A stretch of 64,000 nt of DNA from Escherichia coli (GTDB taxonomy: Bacteria; Pseudomonadota; Gammaproteobacteria; Enterobacterales; Enterobacteriaceae), in assembly GCF_016026235.1 (NCBI RefSeq), contig NZ_CP065613.1; one strand, written 5' to 3'. Each line of letters opens with the position of its first letter. Position 1 is the first letter of the stretch. The translations under genes were made by a program, and so were the position numbers. Positions 34,055 through 44,341 of the stretch are shown here, in pieces. The notes beneath the pieces are model-generated. The model had not been told where the DNA came from. It worked only from the letters and a program-made list of their open reading frames with translations, and did not search any database.

Positions 34055-34130
34055 TGGTGGCCCTTGCTGGATTTGAACCAGCGACCTGGCGATTATGAGT
34101 CGCTCGCTCTCACCACTGAGCTAAAGGGCC
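34055..34130 (-). tRNA. tRNA with CAU anticodon (Ile2-type or Met)
   Basis: 76-nt cloverleaf: acceptor GGCCCTT/AAGGGCC, T-loop TTCAAAT, encoded CCA; close to recalled E. coli ileX. Confidence 0.85.
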
Positions 34131-40178: not shown

Positions 40179-40392
40179 CTCCCAGGCGTTTAAACATTTT
40201 TCCGGACTGAAACGCCACCAGCGGATAACTCAGGGTATGAGTACGTCCCTGAACCTGGCAGACAACCTTCTGGCTTTCTGTATTGACCAGGCAAACCCGC
40301 AGAACGTGGCCGTTGCTGGTGGTGAACCACTGCCCCACTCGGGGGCAACGGTTGTATCGGTGATACAGGGAATTAACGATGCGGCGAATCAT
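40159..40392 (-). CDS. hypothetical small protein
   Basis: 77 aa; ATGA-coupled to Rha stop. Confidence 0.35.
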   Translation of the reverse strand: MIRRIVNSLYHRYNRCPRVGQWFTTSNGHVLRVCLVNTESQKVVCQVQGRTHTLSYPLVAFQSGKMFKRLGGGYASV

Positions 40393-40952
40393 GGACGCAC
40401 CTCCTTGTCAGAACCATTCAGCCTGGAATCAACAAGTGCAGCACCAAAAACAGCATCACCTACACGGTCGTACAGTTTGCTGGCCAGCGGAGATTCAACA
40501 GCCTTAAGCATTGGGTAAAGCTGGCTTGTCCAGATTTGATGGATTTCACGCAAATGCAGGTATACGCCTCTGGCGTTTTGTGCGACAGATGACATGTCAG
40601 CCGCACCAGCTCCTGATAAGCTCCTCTCCATCTGGTTAAAGGCATTGATGTATGCCTCTTTGAACCGGGCGGCACGTTTACCAGTGAAGCCCATAGCAAG
40701 GAAGGCGAAGCCGTCGCGGGTGATTTGGTAGCAGGGAAGTTTGCGAGTACCGCCGTTGGGCTGGCGTACCAAAATTGATGTCTCCGCAAAATTGCGGGCA
40801 CAAAACTCTGGAGAACAATCCAAAATGCGGATCTTTTTCAGAACATCGTCATGACGTTTAGAGAAGAAGTTGGCAACAGCCAGGGATGAAGTAACAGCCT
40901 GACCATCAACGATGGCAATTTCAGGTTGAGTGAGGGTTGGGATCGTAGCCAT
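40389..40952 (-). CDS. Rha-family phage regulatory protein
   Basis: 187 aa from MATIPTLTQPEIAIVDGQ; C-terminus DGFAFLAMGFTGKRAARFKEAYINAFNQME. Confidence 0.7.
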   Translation of the reverse strand: MATIPTLTQPEIAIVDGQAVTSSLAVANFFSKRHDDVLKKIRILDCSPEFCARNFAETSILVRQPNGGTRKLPCYQITRDGFAFLAMGFTGKRAARFKEAYINAFNQMERSLSGAGAADMSSVAQNARGVYLHLREIHQIWTSQLYPMLKAVESPLASKLYDRVGDAVFGAALVDSRLNGSDKEVRP

Positions 40953-41264
40953 GATGGCAGCCTCTTTGGTGATTTTTAATAACTCACCACCAAAGCTTCT
41001 CACGGCAATAGGTGGTGAGACGTACAGGGGTGAGAAACCGGTCACCAAAGAACCCGGCCCAACCGAAGTTGGCCCTGCACGCCCCACCATAATTTGGGCG
41101 TAATGCTGCTCATGACACAAAAAAACCGCAAGAGCGCGGTTGTGCGCTTTGGTGAATTCCGGGTTCTCACGCCCGGCACCCGCTTTATAAGGTGCGGAGA
41201 CAGTGTAACGTCCCGAAATTGCAGAATCAATATCAAAATGTTGTAGCTGTGGACAACGCGAAGC

Positions 41265-41288
41265 CTTGTTGTTATTGTTTACAACAAG
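41265..41288. promoter_or_regulatory. palindrome CTTGTTGT-N8-ACAACAAG upstream of the 41307 operon
   Basis: Perfect 8-bp inverted repeat about 20 bp before GAGGAAG RBS. Confidence 0.4.
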
Positions 41289-41306
41289 AACCAGAGGAAG
41301 CTTTAA

Positions 41307-41594
41307 ATGCCATCCAGACTGTATAAACAGTTCATCCGTCATCTCGGTGAATCTGAATACATACGAATCCGCATATGGGAAGTGGAGCCTGCTGTATTGG
41401 GTAGCCAGCACAACTACAAATACAGCATGGCTTATGTCGTTGATGGCATGTGTGTGATGCGTTACGACAACGAACGGGGTAAAGGCGATCACAAACACAT
41501 TGGTAGTCAGGAAGTCAGCACCAGCTTTGTCACCATTGAACAACTGCTCGCTGATTTTCTGGCTGACGTTGAATCCATCCGCAGAGGTATCTGA
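41307..41594 (+). CDS. hypothetical protein, first gene of TA-like pair
   Basis: 95 aa; RBS GAGGAAG; stop 1 nt before next ATG. Confidence 0.6.
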   Translation: MPSRLYKQFIRHLGESEYIRIRIWEVEPAVLGSQHNYKYSMAYVVDGMCVMRYDNERGKGDHKHIGSQEVSTSFVTIEQLLADFLADVESIRRGI

Positions 41595-41595
41595 C

Positions 41596-41955
41596 ATGAG
41601 AACCGTAACAATCCGAATCGAGTCAATGGATAATTTCACGGCTGATGTGCTGTCTGCGTTCCAGGAAGCAGCTACCGGAGCAAAAGCAACCAGAGAAAAC
41701 GTTATTTCATTTCCTGACTGGCAAATGATGCATAAGGTACTGACACCAAAACGCATGGACATTCTGATGGCAATGACTGGTGCCGGAGAAATGTCCATCC
41801 GAAAAATTGCAGCCCTGGTTGGACGTGATGTAAAAAGCGTGCATACTGACGTGACCGCACTCATCAGCAACGGTTTACTGGAAAAAAGCGAGCGCGGAAC
41901 GTCATTCCCGTATGACGACATCCACTTTGATTTTACGCTGGGCAAGGCGGCGTAA
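41596..41955 (+). CDS. winged-helix DNA-binding protein, second gene of pair
   Basis: 120 aa; HTH-like MSIRKIAALVGRDVKSVHTDVTALISNGLL. Confidence 0.6.
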   Translation: MRTVTIRIESMDNFTADVLSAFQEAATGAKATRENVISFPDWQMMHKVLTPKRMDILMAMTGAGEMSIRKIAALVGRDVKSVHTDVTALISNGLLEKSERGTSFPYDDIHFDFTLGKAA

Positions 41956-42172
41956 TTTTTCGTATATACCGTGCCGTCATTCCGGCGGCGCTTCACACTC
42001 CACAAAATCACGCCTGAACAACCACAACGGGCTGAAACATTCGTACGGATAGCCGTCACGCAGGTAAATGACTCGCTGCGTTTCAGACTCCCAGCGTATA
42101 ACGTGGACACGACGCCCCCTTCCGTCACGGAACCAGCGATTGAGGACTTGCATAAATTACCCGTAAACATTG

Positions 42173-42886
42173 TCACACCTTCCAGCCAGTAGCCTGAAAC
42201 AGGCCCATTCTCGGGTGATACCAGCGGGTACCACGCTGAACGGCACCACACATCATGTGATGAAACGCCTTCAGAAACGGTTCCACAGCAACAATTTCAC
42301 GACGTGCCAGTAATCCATCTGGCGTCAAAAATTCATGAGTGTCTGTCGGGATGTTGTATGCATTTACAAGCGTGCGACATTTCGCATCTGACATACCGGT
42401 TTTTGCTTTCAGCTGGCGATATCCGGCATAGCCCTCTCGAATGGTACCCTTTTTGATTTGCTCAACTGTTTCGGCTACGTGGCTGATTTTTTCTTCCACC
42501 TGAGTGATCCGTTTCTGCTGACGAACAGCCTCGAGCGCCATTGCGGCCACCATTTCGATTTCGCTCATTGGTTTGCGGATCTGTTCTTCCAGTTCGCGCC
42601 AGCGATCTACCAGGCGAGCAGTGAATTCAGGACAGAGCTGTGCGACGACAATGATGCTGTCGCGCTTACCTTGTTCTCCTTCAAACAGGTAATGCTCATA
42701 TTGAACTTTAAAACCTAAGTTATTGATTCTTTCGGAAACCTCAATTTGAGGAGACCGGACAACGCCACCTTTGGCTAATGTTTCAATAGTGCGTTTCACA
42801 TTGTCATGACGCTTACCCACCAGTTCTGCGATCTCAACGCTGGTCATGGATGCTTTGTCGTTAAAAATTGCGGTGTTCACTGCCAT
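42173..42886 (-). CDS. phage antirepressor/Rha-like regulatory protein
   Basis: 237 aa from MAVNTAIFNDKASMTSVEIAELVGKRHDNVKR; GGAG RBS. Confidence 0.65.
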   Translation of the reverse strand: MAVNTAIFNDKASMTSVEIAELVGKRHDNVKRTIETLAKGGVVRSPQIEVSERINNLGFKVQYEHYLFEGEQGKRDSIIVVAQLCPEFTARLVDRWRELEEQIRKPMSEIEMVAAMALEAVRQQKRITQVEEKISHVAETVEQIKKGTIREGYAGYRQLKAKTGMSDAKCRTLVNAYNIPTDTHEFLTPDGLLARREIVAVEPFLKAFHHMMCGAVQRGTRWYHPRMGLFQATGWKV

Positions 42887-42999
42887 CTCCTTACGGATAA
42901 ATTCTTTTAAGATTCCGCACATTCGTACTTGTTGGTGCCGAACCTTCCTTCAGTTATCCTTTTGATCCCTATAAACAAAAGAACCAAAGGAGGTTCGAC

Positions 43000-43293
43000 A
43001 TGAAAGTTCAGGCCGTTGGTTTATTCTGGTTTCGCGATGCGATTCAGTATCATGAGCTCAAAAATATTTTTACTGATGCTGATGTGCTCTCCGACAGTTA
43101 CACCGAGTGGAAACACGACGCTGAAAAATTGATTAAGCGTGTCGAAAGAAGCGGGCAACGAGTTATTAAAGTTGAAGCGGATACAGCCGAGTTCATCACC
43201 TGGTGTACAAGCGAAGGCATTGGACTCAATGCCGAAGGTAGAATGCAGTTCGCATCCTTTAAGGCTTACCAACAACTTCTCAGCGAACGCTAA
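43000..43293 (+). CDS. hypothetical protein
   Basis: 97 aa; strong AAAGGAGGT RBS; competes with antisense ORF 43021..43374. Confidence 0.45.
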   Translation: MKVQAVGLFWFRDAIQYHELKNIFTDADVLSDSYTEWKHDAEKLIKRVERSGQRVIKVEADTAEFITWCTSEGIGLNAEGRMQFASFKAYQQLLSER

Positions 43294-43363
43294 TGTGATT
43301 GGGGCAATCGAAATTGTTGCCCCATCGTATTTAATAGTTATTTTTTCGCTCATATCACCACCA

Positions 43364-43573
43364 TCACTTCTCATCCTCTGTGTGCGCTAAGCTTGGATGT
43401 GTATATGGAATGTTCGGATCCAGATGGCAGAGAATGGCAACATCCTCCGGAACGCCCCGCGTTTTCCACTTTCCAACTCCCTGACTACCACGAGGCTTTC
43501 CTTTCTTTGGGAACCTGCGGCCAATAGCGGCATTGGTTTTAAATTGAGTTTTTAATATTTCATAAAGGGTCAT
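43364..43573 (-). CDS. Cro-like early regulator
   Basis: 69 aa, divergent from cI. Confidence 0.55.
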   Translation of the reverse strand: MTLYEILKTQFKTNAAIGRRFPKKGKPRGSQGVGKWKTRGVPEDVAILCHLDPNIPYTHPSLAHTEDEK

Positions 43574-43684
43574 TCTTTAGCCTCACACCGGATACTCTGT
43601 TATCCAAGAATGTTAAACATGAGAATCCAAAGTATCAAGATATTCTGTTACTTTAGTATCAGCAGCCATGAAAGGAGAAGAAAA
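43574..43684. promoter_or_regulatory. divergent cro/cI promoter-operator region
   Basis: 111-bp intergenic with repeated GTATCA and CTGTTA motifs. Confidence 0.5.
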
Positions 43685-44341
43685 ATGAAATCTTTAGGTG
43701 AACGGCTAATCAACGCACGACAAAAAGCTGGGTTAACGCAAGATGCGTTGGCTAAAAAAGCAGGGGTCACCAGAGTTGCAATCAGTAAAGCCGAGCAAGG
43801 CCTTACAAAAAGTTTCAACGGTGACACCCTTTTTAAAGTCGCAGCTGCACTGCAGTGTTCACCGCAGTGGCTTCAGAACGGAGATGAGAAAGGTAAGCAT
43901 TGGGAAAATAATGTTAAGAGTTGCCCCCAGAGGGACACAGCACACTCTTACCCTGTAATTAACTGGGTTCAGGCAGGATTATTCACAACTGCAGGTGATG
44001 ACTACAACATGTATGATCAGGATAACTGGAGGCATTCTGTAAAATACGCTGGTGAGAGGGGGTTCTGGCTGGAAGTGCACGGAGACTCAATGACTTCGCC
44101 TATAGGAATAACATTTCCTGAAGGAATGTCGATCCTTGTCAACCCAGATAAAGAAGTTTTTTCAGGGTGTTACGTCATTGCCAGAAAAAAATCCACCAAT
44201 GAAGCAACATTCAAAAAATATATTTCTGAAATGGGAAAGGCGTTTCTAAAGCCCCTTAATCCACAATACCCAATCATAGAAATGGACAATGATTGCGAAA
44301 TAGTAGGCGTTGTGGTTGATGCCAGATGGGATATTTTCTGA
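43685..44341 (+). CDS. CI-like repressor (HTH plus S24 LexA-like peptidase domain)
   Basis: 218 aa; AGLTQDALAKKAGVTRVAISKAEQG HTH; HGDSM and K of catalytic dyad. Confidence 0.9.
   Translation: MKSLGERLINARQKAGLTQDALAKKAGVTRVAISKAEQGLTKSFNGDTLFKVAAALQCSPQWLQNGDEKGKHWENNVKSCPQRDTAHSYPVINWVQAGLFTTAGDDYNMYDQDNWRHSVKYAGERGFWLEVHGDSMTSPIGITFPEGMSILVNPDKEVFSGCYVIARKKSTNEATFKKYISEMGKAFLKPLNPQYPIIEMDNDCEIVGVVVDARWDIF

What the first reader, a model, noticed from the sequence alone, without database searches (positions are those of the whole stretch)
43000..43293. Plus-strand gene with very strong RBS between antirepressor-like gene and cro
A 97-aa ORF with AAAGGAGGT 6 nt before the ATG lies on the strand opposite to cro and the early-right operon, overlapping an alternative 110-aa antisense ORF. 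One of the two is likely a real immunity-region gene (cII-position analogue or moron); the strand cannot be decided from sequence alone.
Basis: inference. Interest (0 to 1): 0.4.

Follow-up and report, generated by a model that had tools for sequence, protein, structure and literature searches.

The report
Prophage cargo gene with portable leader
The plus-strand 97-codon ORF is a real, conserved gene of unknown function, carried in an E. coli lambdoid prophage on a small cassette whose 70-base leader (promoter, strong ribosome site and a conserved hairpin) is shared by at least ten unrelated cargo genes.

Summary
ORF 43000-43293 (+), its Shine-Dalgarno sequence (AAAGGAGGT) and the overlapping antisense ORF all exist. 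The strand can be decided. Divergent homologues give dN/dS of 0.07-0.19 in the plus frame and 1.0-1.5 in the antisense frame, so the antisense ORF is a shadow.

The protein matches PHROG 4753 and RefSeq hypothetical WP_000867913. It belongs to a family of about 100-residue proteins (over 1,100 clusters) with no Pfam model or name. Its confident model resembles only the non-HTH part of SO3848, an Aca2-like regulator.

The gene sits on a 475-bp insertion between cro and rha, pointing the same way as cI. A related Stx2 phage has this slot empty, and phiP27 carries a different gene there.

The unexpected result is the 70 nt upstream (42931-43002). It is a conserved portable leader found in front of at least ten unrelated cargo genes, including BssS and ECs1072 family genes, all starting at the same ATG. 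It contains -35/-10-like boxes. As minus-strand RNA it folds into a 17-bp hairpin with covariation, and it matches no Rfam family.

The protein's function and the hairpin's role are inferred, not shown.

The parts
42892..43366 (.). Inserted cassette, 475 bp, relative to Stx2a phage LC567842, where cro overlaps rha directly
   Evidence: blastn homology to the empty-slot phage stops at 42891 and resumes at 43367. Homology to phiP27 stops at 42906 and resumes at 43374, with a different 223-aa plus-strand gene between.
42931..43002 (+). Conserved portable leader element, TTGGTGCCGAACCTTCC...AACCAAAGGAGGTTCGACATG
   Evidence: 98.6% identical in front of a BssS-family gene in the same slot. 78-80% identical in phages EKP1 and pPE4 in front of a 34%-identical homologue and an unrelated 151-aa ORF. 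111 hits, 35 unique variants and 12 cargo clusters among the fetched loci. One copy in the window against 0.01 expected.
42931..42936 (+). Candidate -35 box, TTGGTG
   Evidence: (T/C)TGGTG is nearly invariant at the 5' edge of the conserved element, 17 nt upstream of the -10-like box. The consensus scan did not call it.
42954..42959 (+). Candidate -10 box, TATCCT
   Evidence: The aligned hexamer is TATAAT in the commonest leader variant and GATATT, GATACT or TATATC in others. This is inference; no transcription start data exist.
42936..43000 (-). Hairpin formed by the minus-strand (PR-direction) transcript. Arms are 42984-43000 and 42936-42953 (17 bp, one bulge). Apical 3-bp stem is 42974-42976 with 42965-42967.
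   Evidence: dG -29.3 kcal/mol, z=-5.1 in the window; z -3.2 to -5.9 in 7 of 8 lineages. Across 29 unique leaders, 97.1% of cells are paired, 23 cells are compensatory and 0/500 shuffles reach the observed values. 33 of 35 leaders are more stable as minus-strand than as plus-strand RNA.
42986..42994 (+). Shine-Dalgarno sequence AAAGGAGGT, 5 nt before the ATG
   Evidence: Direct reading. GGAGG is invariant across leader variants, partly because the search pattern required it.
43000..43293 (+). orf97: real protein-coding gene, 97 aa, PHROG 4753, RefSeq WP_000867913.1 hypothetical protein
   Evidence: Full-length PHROG match, E=4e-49. PGAP CDS. dN/dS 0.07-0.19. 1,133 family clusters. AF2 pLDDT 93.9.
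43300..43324 (+). Conserved stem-loop after the stop codon: plus-strand terminator or 3' stabiliser with a weak U tail
   Evidence: Terminator-like call. 89% of cells paired and 3 pairs with compensatory changes. Its wobble pairs are G.U on the plus strand and would be A.C on the minus strand.
43021..43374 (-). Antisense shadow ORF (117 or 110 aa): not a gene
   Evidence: dN/dS 1.0-1.5 and 47-53% amino-acid identity where the sense frame keeps 76-81%. No family match. It stays open only because the sense gene uses almost no TTA, CTA or TCA codons.
43364..43573 (-). cro-position gene, 69 aa, tail-to-tail with orf97
   Evidence: PHROG 4749. Lies just downstream of a PR-like promoter. Homologous positions in relatives hold small HTH Cro-like genes.
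43610..43638 (-). PR-like promoter, TTGATA-17-TAACAT, driving cro and the early-right operon
   Evidence: Consensus scan. Flanked by the repeat GATAyTCTGTTA.
43685..44341 (+). cI-type repressor (HTH_3 plus Peptidase_S24), same strand as orf97
   Evidence: Pfam E=1e-22 and 1e-14.
42173..42880 (-). Rha-family regulator, the first early gene after the cassette
   Evidence: Pfam Phage_pRha E=2e-10, PHROG 63. PGAP start is the GTG at 42880.

Best explanation
Shown. orf97 (43000-43293, +) is a genuine protein-coding gene, and the antisense ORF is a by-product of its codon usage. orf97 is the cargo of a 475-bp cassette inserted into the early-right (PR) operon of a phiP27-like E. coli prophage. The cassette lies between cro and rha and points towards cI. 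The leader is portable: unrelated cargo genes in other lambdoid prophages start at the same ATG, in the same kind of slot and the same orientation.

Inferred. The cassette is a self-contained expression unit. It has a roughly 70-nt leader (-35 TTGGTG, 17-nt spacer, -10-like TATCCT, about 35 nt of 5' UTR and a near-perfect Shine-Dalgarno), then the ORF, then a plus-strand stem-loop terminator. The cargo is made from its own sigma-70 promoter when PR is silent, that is, in the lysogen. On induction, convergent PR transcription and the resulting antisense RNA shut it down. Because the leader is an imperfect palindrome, the PR transcript that reads through it folds into a 17-bp hairpin. This hairpin most likely insulates the early mRNA, for example by masking the CCUCC anti-SD-like sequence or by serving as a processing or stability site, so that the insertion does not harm downstream early genes.

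The protein is a small cytoplasmic alpha/beta domain (b-a-a-b-a-a). It resembles the non-DNA-binding C-terminal part of SO3848, an Aca2-like regulator, and so probably acts by protein-protein contact. Its target is unknown.
For: Coding strand:
- Position-3 substitutions dominate, about 17/7/52.
- dN/dS is 0.07-0.19 in the sense frame and 1.0-1.5 in the antisense frame.
- Full-length PHROG 4753 hit and the PGAP CDS.

Family and fold:
- 1,133 clusters in the exhaustive profile search, with no Pfam match or name.
- AF2 pLDDT 93.9.

Cassette:
- Empty slot in LC567842 and alternative cargo in phiP27 and ETEC1749.
- Same tail-to-tail position with at least 9 different cro/cI types. The position also holds in Salmonella, Xenorhabdus and more distant homologues.

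Leader:
- Shared by 12 cargo clusters, all starting at its ATG. Independent annotations pick that ATG.
- The commonest variant has a perfect TATAAT 17 nt after CTGGTG.
- The upstream neighbour is on the opposite strand in 92 of 96 loci.

Hairpins:
- Minus-strand leader hairpin: z about -5, 97.1% paired, 23 compensatory cells, 0/500 shuffles. More stable than the plus-strand fold in 33 of 35 variants.
- The plus-strand terminator hairpin uses G.U pairs.

Indirect expression evidence: ECs1072, the namesake of one cargo family, was detected and growth-phase regulated in an uninduced O157 culture (PMC2241611).
Against: - There are no transcript or protein data for this locus.
- The consensus promoter scan calls nothing on the plus strand. 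The window's own -35 (3/6) and -10 (4/6) boxes are weak.
- The terminator's U tail is poor and is not conserved.
- The outer 9 bp of the leader hairpin were fixed by my search pattern. Only the inner pairs and the apical stem are unbiased evidence. One lineage (L035) lacks the minus-strand hairpin.
- Distant family members also occur in ordinary chromosomal contexts, so the protein need not have a phage-specific role.
- Two of 37 loci carry nonsense alleles.
- I did not verify that the Sakai ECs1072 copy carries the leader.
Confidence: 0.7

Rival explanations
1. The minus-strand 117/110-aa ORF is the real gene. It would be translated from the PR transcript, coupled to cro, and the plus-strand ORF would be the shadow.
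For: Its ATG at 43374 overlaps the end of cro, so it would fit the operon. The frame stays open in most homologues. GenBank record OM284015 annotates that strand, and a gene caller did so in L065.
Against: dN/dS is 1.0-1.5, and amino-acid identity is only 47-53% at DNA divergence where the plus frame keeps 76-81%. It matches no family. The open frame is explained by the absence of TTA, CTA and TCA codons in the sense gene. The plus ORF of EKP1 is intact.
Confidence: 0.02
2. The cassette is an establishment-phase unit, analogous to lambda P_RE. Its promoter would depend on a CII-like activator. Its transcript would run through orf97 and antisense cro into cI, so orf97 would be made only while lysogeny is being set up.
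For: orf97 has the position and orientation of P_RE. It lies downstream of cro, points at cI, and in L031/L034 sits 81 nt from the start of a CII (CP76) gene. The window's -35 box is poor, as in CII-dependent promoters. The hairpin has a weak U tail, so read-through towards cI is possible. In Bcep176 the homologue gp17 lies in a plus-strand block that runs from next to the CII-like gene to an HTH gene.
Against: The same leader works next to very different neighbours (Rha, O-like, primosomal), and most of these loci have no CII next to it. The commonest variants have a perfect TATAAT and should not need an activator. The empty-slot phage keeps cI and cro without this element.
Confidence: 0.15
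3. The main product is RNA, as with lambda oop or P22 sar. Plus-strand transcription from the leader would act chiefly as antisense and convergent interference against PR, damping cro and early-gene expression. The cargo ORFs would then be interchangeable passengers.
For: The leader is far more conserved than the cargo: 78% nucleotide identity against 34% amino-acid identity in EKP1. Cargo genes are unrelated. The position and orientation match lambda oop, between cII/ydaT and the replication genes, in pPE4 and L194. Nonsense alleles of orf97 persist.
Against: orf97 is under strong purifying selection. A near-perfect Shine-Dalgarno sequence is conserved, so translation matters. The covariation favours the minus-strand hairpin, not a plus-strand RNA structure.
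Confidence: 0.1
4. The palindromic leader is a recombination site used as folded single-stranded DNA, as an integron attC is. On this view site-specific recombination, not homologous exchange, swaps cargo exactly at the ATG.
For: The cargo junction is exact at ...GTTCGAC|ATG in all cargo classes. The folded strand is the bottom strand relative to the cargo ORF, and G.T-tolerant pairing is conserved. The arms GCCGAAC/GTTCGAC resemble RYYYAAC/GTTRRRY; that comparison rests on my own recollection of the attC consensus.
Against: Each arm departs from the attC core at one position. There is no second site at the 3' end of the cassette: the ends are cargo-specific terminators. Only one copy is present in the window. 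No integron-type integrase was seen nearby. An exact junction is equally expected if selection keeps the Shine-Dalgarno-to-ATG spacing after homologous exchange.
Confidence: 0.04

Closest known systems
Morons of lambdoid phages (independently expressed genes inserted into a phage operon; definition as quoted in PMC2629481)
   Same: Present or absent between related phages at one position. Likely has its own promoter and a terminator-like hairpin. Oriented against the surrounding operon. Different cargo occupies the same slot in different phages.
   Different: Many unrelated cargo genes share one conserved, structured 70-nt leader and the same start codon. The leader also encodes a conserved hairpin in the opposite-strand transcript. 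I found no description of such a shared leader in the searchable literature.
Lambda oop/Po and P_RE (leftward transcription units downstream of cro/cII); from textbook knowledge of lambda
   Same: A promoter downstream of cro (or of cII/ydaT) that fires against PR, towards cI. Convergent and antisense interaction with the early-right transcript is therefore unavoidable.
   Different: It encodes a translated, selected protein. The hairpin ends about 40 nt before the cro stop, so there is no built-in overlap. No CII-type repeats were identified, and there is no sequence similarity.
SO3848 (PDB 2OX6), an Aca2/YdiL-like HTH regulator (PMC8434428)
   Different: orf97 has no HTH and only 11% identity. 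Neither sequence nor profile search detects the relation. Foldseek is marginal (E=0.3, TM 0.56). Aca2 and YdiL themselves are not among the hits.
PHROG 4753 and RefSeq WP_000867913.1
   Same: Full-length member (E=4e-49), identical gene model.
   Different: Both are labelled 'unknown function' or 'hypothetical'. Nothing is known beyond the sequence.
Integron attC sites
   Same: An imperfect palindrome of about 65 nt whose bottom strand folds. A cassette ORF follows the 3' arm.
   Different: The core motifs are not met, there is no second site and no IntI was seen. The leader carries the promoter and Shine-Dalgarno for the cargo, whereas integron cassettes rely on Pc.

Membership tests
Phage moron | Gene present or absent at the same position when related phages are compared | tested here: met
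   The slot is empty in LC567842, where cro overlaps rha. phiP27 holds L13 there and ETEC1749 holds a BssS-family gene.
Phage moron | Own promoter | tested here: inconclusive
   The consensus scan finds none on the plus strand. The conserved leader does have (T/C)TGGTG-17 nt-TATAAT-like boxes, with a perfect TATAAT in the commonest variant. No TSS data.
Phage moron | Own terminator | tested here: inconclusive
   A conserved plus-strand hairpin lies at 43300-43324 and shows some covariation, but its U tail is weak and variable.
Phage moron | Expressed from the repressed prophage | not testable with these tools
   Only indirect evidence: the ECs1072 family namesake was detected in uninduced O157 (PMC2241611). 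The presence of the leader in that copy was not verified.
PHROG 4753 | Full-length match to the family HMM | tested here: met
   Residues 1-97 against profile 1-97, E=3.8e-49.
Aca2/YdiL/SO3848-type HTH regulators | [quoted passage not shown] | tested here: not met
Aca2/YdiL/SO3848-type HTH regulators | C-terminal b-a-a-b dimerisation domain | tested here: inconclusive
   Opposite strand and no HTH. Genuine Phage_CP76 CII genes are separate neighbours in L031 (E=2e-11) and L037.
Known anti-phage defence proteins (PADLOC) | Match to a defence-system HMM | tested here: not met
   No hit for orf97, the antisense ORF, cro or phiP27 L13.
Rfam RNA families (for the leader and hairpins) | Covariance-model match | tested here: not met
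   Only a chance miRNA hit, E=0.5, in 42700-43750 on both strands.
Integron attC | RYYYAAC ... GTTRRRY cores and a site at each cassette boundary | tested here: not met
   The arms are GCCGAAC and GTTCGAC, one deviation each. The 3' ends of cassettes are cargo-specific hairpins. One copy in the window.

The most novel reading that the evidence does not exclude
The 70-nt leader would be an undescribed structured element that defines a cargo-exchange system in lambdoid prophages. One conserved palindrome would supply promoter, Shine-Dalgarno and start codon to interchangeable lysogen-expressed genes. Folded in the opposite-strand PR transcript (or as single-stranded DNA), it would also act as an insulator, processing signal or recombination signal that lets such antisense insertions sit inside the essential early operon. 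On this reading orf97 and its co-cargo families (ECs1072, BssS-like and others) would be a pool of uncharacterised lysogenic-conversion or immunity factors.
Probability: 0.3. Interest if true: 0.65.

Novelty: new variant of a known kind. Interest (0 to 1): 0.5.

Why it matters
The gene itself is a routine hypothetical prophage protein. What matters is its setting. A single conserved leader marks a hot spot in the immunity/early region of lambdoid prophages, where at least ten unrelated small genes are swapped in and out. About 2-3% of complete E. coli genomes carry one of the two variants I searched.

This gives a simple sequence handle for finding cargo that is probably expressed in the lysogen, such as candidate superinfection, defence or host-modulating factors. 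It also gives a testable case of how a phage tolerates a convergent gene inside an essential operon, through the conserved minus-strand hairpin.

Finally, the shadow ORF on the other strand is sometimes annotated in place of the real gene (GenBank OM284015), so the result settles a recurring annotation error.

Tried and rejected
- Pfam, NCBIfam and PADLOC gave nothing for orf97.
- Pfam on 106 family members and on the longer 'fusion' members gave nothing. The N-terminal extensions look like mis-called starts, apart from genuine tandem duplications.
- PDB sequence searches with the single sequence and with the profile gave no significant hit.
- The first AF2 run, with 14 close homologues, was poor (pLDDT 62). 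Only the 106-sequence alignment gave a usable model.
- afdb50 was unavailable.
- The genome-contig scan returned a single locus.
- A plus-strand anti-SD helix that would sequester the RBS was tested. It is 87% paired but shows no significant covariation, and the plus-strand fold z-scores are mixed. The same palindrome is better supported on the minus strand.
- I considered whether the open antisense frame is maintained to keep ribosomes on the PR transcript. Its openness is explained by low Leu/Ser content and the absence of TTA, CTA and TCA codons.
- I considered specific binding of orf97 to its neighbour Cro or CI. This is unlikely, because 96-100% identical orf97 alleles sit next to at least 5 different cro/cI types in E. 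coli.
- Literature searches for the accession, the PHROG id, the leader sequence and the slot found nothing relevant.
- The attC-like reading was rejected (see rival explanations).

Full report
**1. Observation.**
The plus-strand ORF runs from the ATG at 43000 to the stop at 43291-43293 and encodes 97 aa. AAAGGAGGT lies at 42986-42994, 5 nt before the ATG. The antisense ORF runs 43374..43021.

The neighbours are:
- a Rha-family gene, 42173-42880 (-);
- a 69-aa gene in the cro position, 43364-43573 (-), behind a PR-like promoter at 43638..43610;
- a LexA/S24-type cI gene, 43685-44341 (+).

The region is a phiP27-like lambdoid prophage of E. coli. RefSeq annotates the plus-strand ORF as hypothetical protein WP_000867913.1.

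**2. Which strand codes.**
I collected 36 homologous loci from IMG/VR and more from metagenomes. In the divergent homologues (59-81% amino-acid identity), substitutions at plus-frame codon positions 1/2/3 run about 17/7/52. The sense translation keeps 76-81% identity where the antisense translation keeps 47-53%. Nei-Gojobori dN/dS is 0.07-0.19 for the plus frame and 1.0-1.5 for the antisense frame.

The antisense frame stays open only because the sense gene has few Leu and Ser codons and almost no TTA, CTA or TCA codons. Those are the only sense codons that read as stops on the other strand in this register.

The plus ORF matches PHROG 4753 over its full length (E=4e-49). The antisense ORF matches nothing. 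The plus strand is therefore the coding strand. GenBank record OM284015 (phage EKP1) annotates the shadow ORF even though its plus ORF is intact.

**3. The protein.**
A word-indexed search found only close relatives in Enterobacterales, all labelled hypothetical. The exhaustive profile search found 1,133 clusters at E<=1e-3. Almost all are stand-alone proteins of about 100 aa. A few are tandem duplications. Conserved positions are W10, D26, W37, G52, W68, C69 and R81. None of 106 members hits Pfam, and no source gives a name.

SO3848 is an Aca2/YdiL-like regulator. Its HTH takes about 55-59 residues. Its enlarged C-terminal domain has exactly this order of elements (PMC8434428, PMC9410881, PMC9638941). 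No other HTH protein appears among the hits. I therefore infer that orf97 corresponds to the non-HTH domain. The aligned range itself was not shown to me.

Distant members also occur as solitary chromosomal genes, in Syntrophorhabdaceae for example. The biochemical function remains unknown.

**4. The cassette.**
In Stx2a phage LC567842, cro overlaps the rha homologue directly. Relative to that phage, window positions 42892-43366 (475 bp) are an insertion. phiP27 has a different 223-aa plus-strand gene in the slot. E. coli ETEC1749 has a BssS-family gene there.

Within E. coli, nearly identical orf97 alleles sit next to at least 5 different cro/cI types. Over all close homologues there are at least 9 types. 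In every case orf97 is tail-to-tail with a small Cro-like HTH gene and co-directional with the repressor gene.

The same arrangement holds for homologues in Salmonella (48% identity), Xenorhabdus (44%, two prophages) and more distant contigs (34-37%). In L031 and L034 the upstream neighbour is a CII (CP76) gene. In L037 the CII gene lies between cro and orf97. A few homologues sit elsewhere in prophages. This fits the published definition of a moron (PMC2629481).

**5. The leader.**
Conservation upstream of orf97 starts abruptly at TTGGTGCC (42931) in all contexts. In 13 of the 87 E. coli genomes that match the cassette, only these first 72 nt are present, and there they lead into another gene. 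The same element is 78-80% identical in phage EKP1, whose protein is only 34% identical, and in phage pPE4, where the gene that follows is an unrelated 151-aa ORF.

I scanned IMG/VR with a pattern for the two arms and filtered for the ATG. Together with loci already fetched, this gave 111 elements, 35 unique variants and 12 cargo clusters (11 once the frameshifted BssS allele is merged with the intact one). The cargo clusters are:
- the orf97 family;
- the ECs1072 family (NF033230);
- another family of about 151 aa;
- an 83-aa family;
- BssS;
- several singletons.

None except BssS matches Pfam. All cargo genes begin at the leader's ATG, and independent annotations pick that ATG. The gene upstream of the leader is on the opposite strand in 92 of 96 loci.

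The commonest variant reads CTGGTG-17 nt-TATAAT. The window has TTGGTG-17 nt-TATCCT. Other variants have GATATT, GATACT or TATATC at the aligned position. The leader therefore very probably contains the cargo promoter, although the simple consensus scan misses it.

About 87 and 56 of 5,426 complete E. coli genomes carry the two variants I searched.

**6. RNA structure.**
The leader is an imperfect palindrome. A plus-strand helix that would hide the Shine-Dalgarno sequence is 87% paired but shows no significant covariation.

The minus-strand RNA, which is the PR-direction transcript, folds much better:
- dG is -27 to -37 kcal/mol with z of -3.2 to -5.9 in 7 of 8 lineages.
- It is more stable than the plus-strand fold in 33 of 35 variants.
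- Over 29 unique leaders the consensus is a 17-bp helix plus a 3-bp apical stem.
- 97.1% of cells are paired and 23 cells show compensatory changes. The covariation score is 0.236 against 0.157 in shuffles, with 0/500 shuffles reaching the observed values. Slid controls are 31-57% paired.
- By my count from the per-pair table, 74 cells are G.U pairs that would be A.C mismatches on the plus strand.

Caveat: my search pattern fixed the outer 9 bp. The unbiased evidence comes from the inner pairs and the apical stem, which is where the covariation lies. One lineage (L035) lacks the hairpin. No Rfam family matches.

The hairpin after the stop codon (43300-43324) behaves the opposite way. Its wobble pairs are G.U on the plus strand, and it has three pairs with compensatory changes. 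That fits a plus-strand terminator or 3' stabiliser, although its U tail is weak.

**7. Mechanism.**
Shown: the gene, the cassette, the portability of the leader and the conserved minus-strand pairing.

Inferred:
- The cargo is transcribed from the leader promoter, starting downstream of the 5' arm, so the mRNA has a free, very strong Shine-Dalgarno sequence.
- It is expressed while PR is repressed and silenced by convergent PR transcription on induction.
- The PR transcript, which contains the whole palindrome, folds into the hairpin. The hairpin may mask the CCUCC sequence that any strong Shine-Dalgarno places on the opposite strand. Alternatively it may act as a processing or stability signal. 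Either way the insertion would not disturb rha and the genes beyond it.

Only indirect expression evidence exists: ECs1072 was detected in uninduced O157 Sakai (PMC2241611).

I keep three alternatives open: a CII-dependent, P_RE-like establishment unit; a mainly antisense, oop-like role; and an attC-like recombination site. The first two cannot be excluded without transcript data.

**8. Verdict.**
It is wrong that the strand cannot be decided, and wrong on the cII analogy.

The gene alone is ordinary and already annotated. The shared, structured leader with interchangeable cargo is a new variant of the moron theme. I could not find it described in the searchable literature.

Noticed in passing
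window 41307-41952 (+): A TumE toxin gene (Pfam E=2e-15) followed by an HVO_A0114-type regulator gene forms a second opposite-strand cassette inside the minus-strand early operon. The RefSeq relative shows a truncated ash pseudogene beside it.
   Followed up: partly
L071 (GenBank OM284015, phage EKP1) 3001-3396: The deposited annotation calls the antisense shadow ORF (3064-3396, -) instead of the intact orf97 homologue (3001-3279, +).
   Followed up: yes
L072 (E. coli ETEC1749) 2570-2822: The BssS-family cargo has an A8 run where IMG/VR copies have A7. This puts the leader's ATG out of frame. PGAP rescued the ORF with a GTG start inside the leader. It may be a homopolymer sequencing error or a real frameshift.
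   Followed up: partly
L026 and L030, codons 37 and 36 of orf97; L014 4305-5150: Two of 37 loci carry nonsense alleles of orf97 (W37*, E36*). One locus has an IS element inserted between orf97 and cro.
   Followed up: no
window 43591-43602 and 43639-43650: The direct repeat GATAyTCTGTTA lies near the PR-like promoter (43638..43610). These are candidate operator half-sites for cI/Cro.
   Followed up: no
window 40389-42251 (-): A 620-aa ORF overlaps several better-supported genes on both strands (DUF4222, TumE pair, ash-like). It is probably a spurious long ORF.
   Followed up: no
L071 (Elizabethkingia phage EKP1) and L073 (Actinobacillus phage pPE4): Both records carry enterobacterial-type lambdoid immunity regions (DicA, YdaT, DUF4222). 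Their leaders are 78-80% identical to the E. coli one, which is unexpected for their stated hosts.
   Followed up: no
cargo ORFs in L123, L155, L159, L184 (IMG/VR): Several small cargo proteins of 70-83 aa end in a similar leucine-rich helix (for example ...QLLSQLQNLKKEMA), reminiscent of the BssS C-terminus. None matches Pfam BssS.
   Followed up: partly
L070 (Burkholderia phage Bcep176) 2940-5220: The family member gp17 lies in a plus-strand run of small genes (gp15-gp19) that ends in an HTH gene (gp20) and diverges from a CII-like gene. The layout resembles acr-aca operons.
   Followed up: no
window 34055-34130 (-): tRNA-Met gene, the only tRNA in the window.
   Followed up: no
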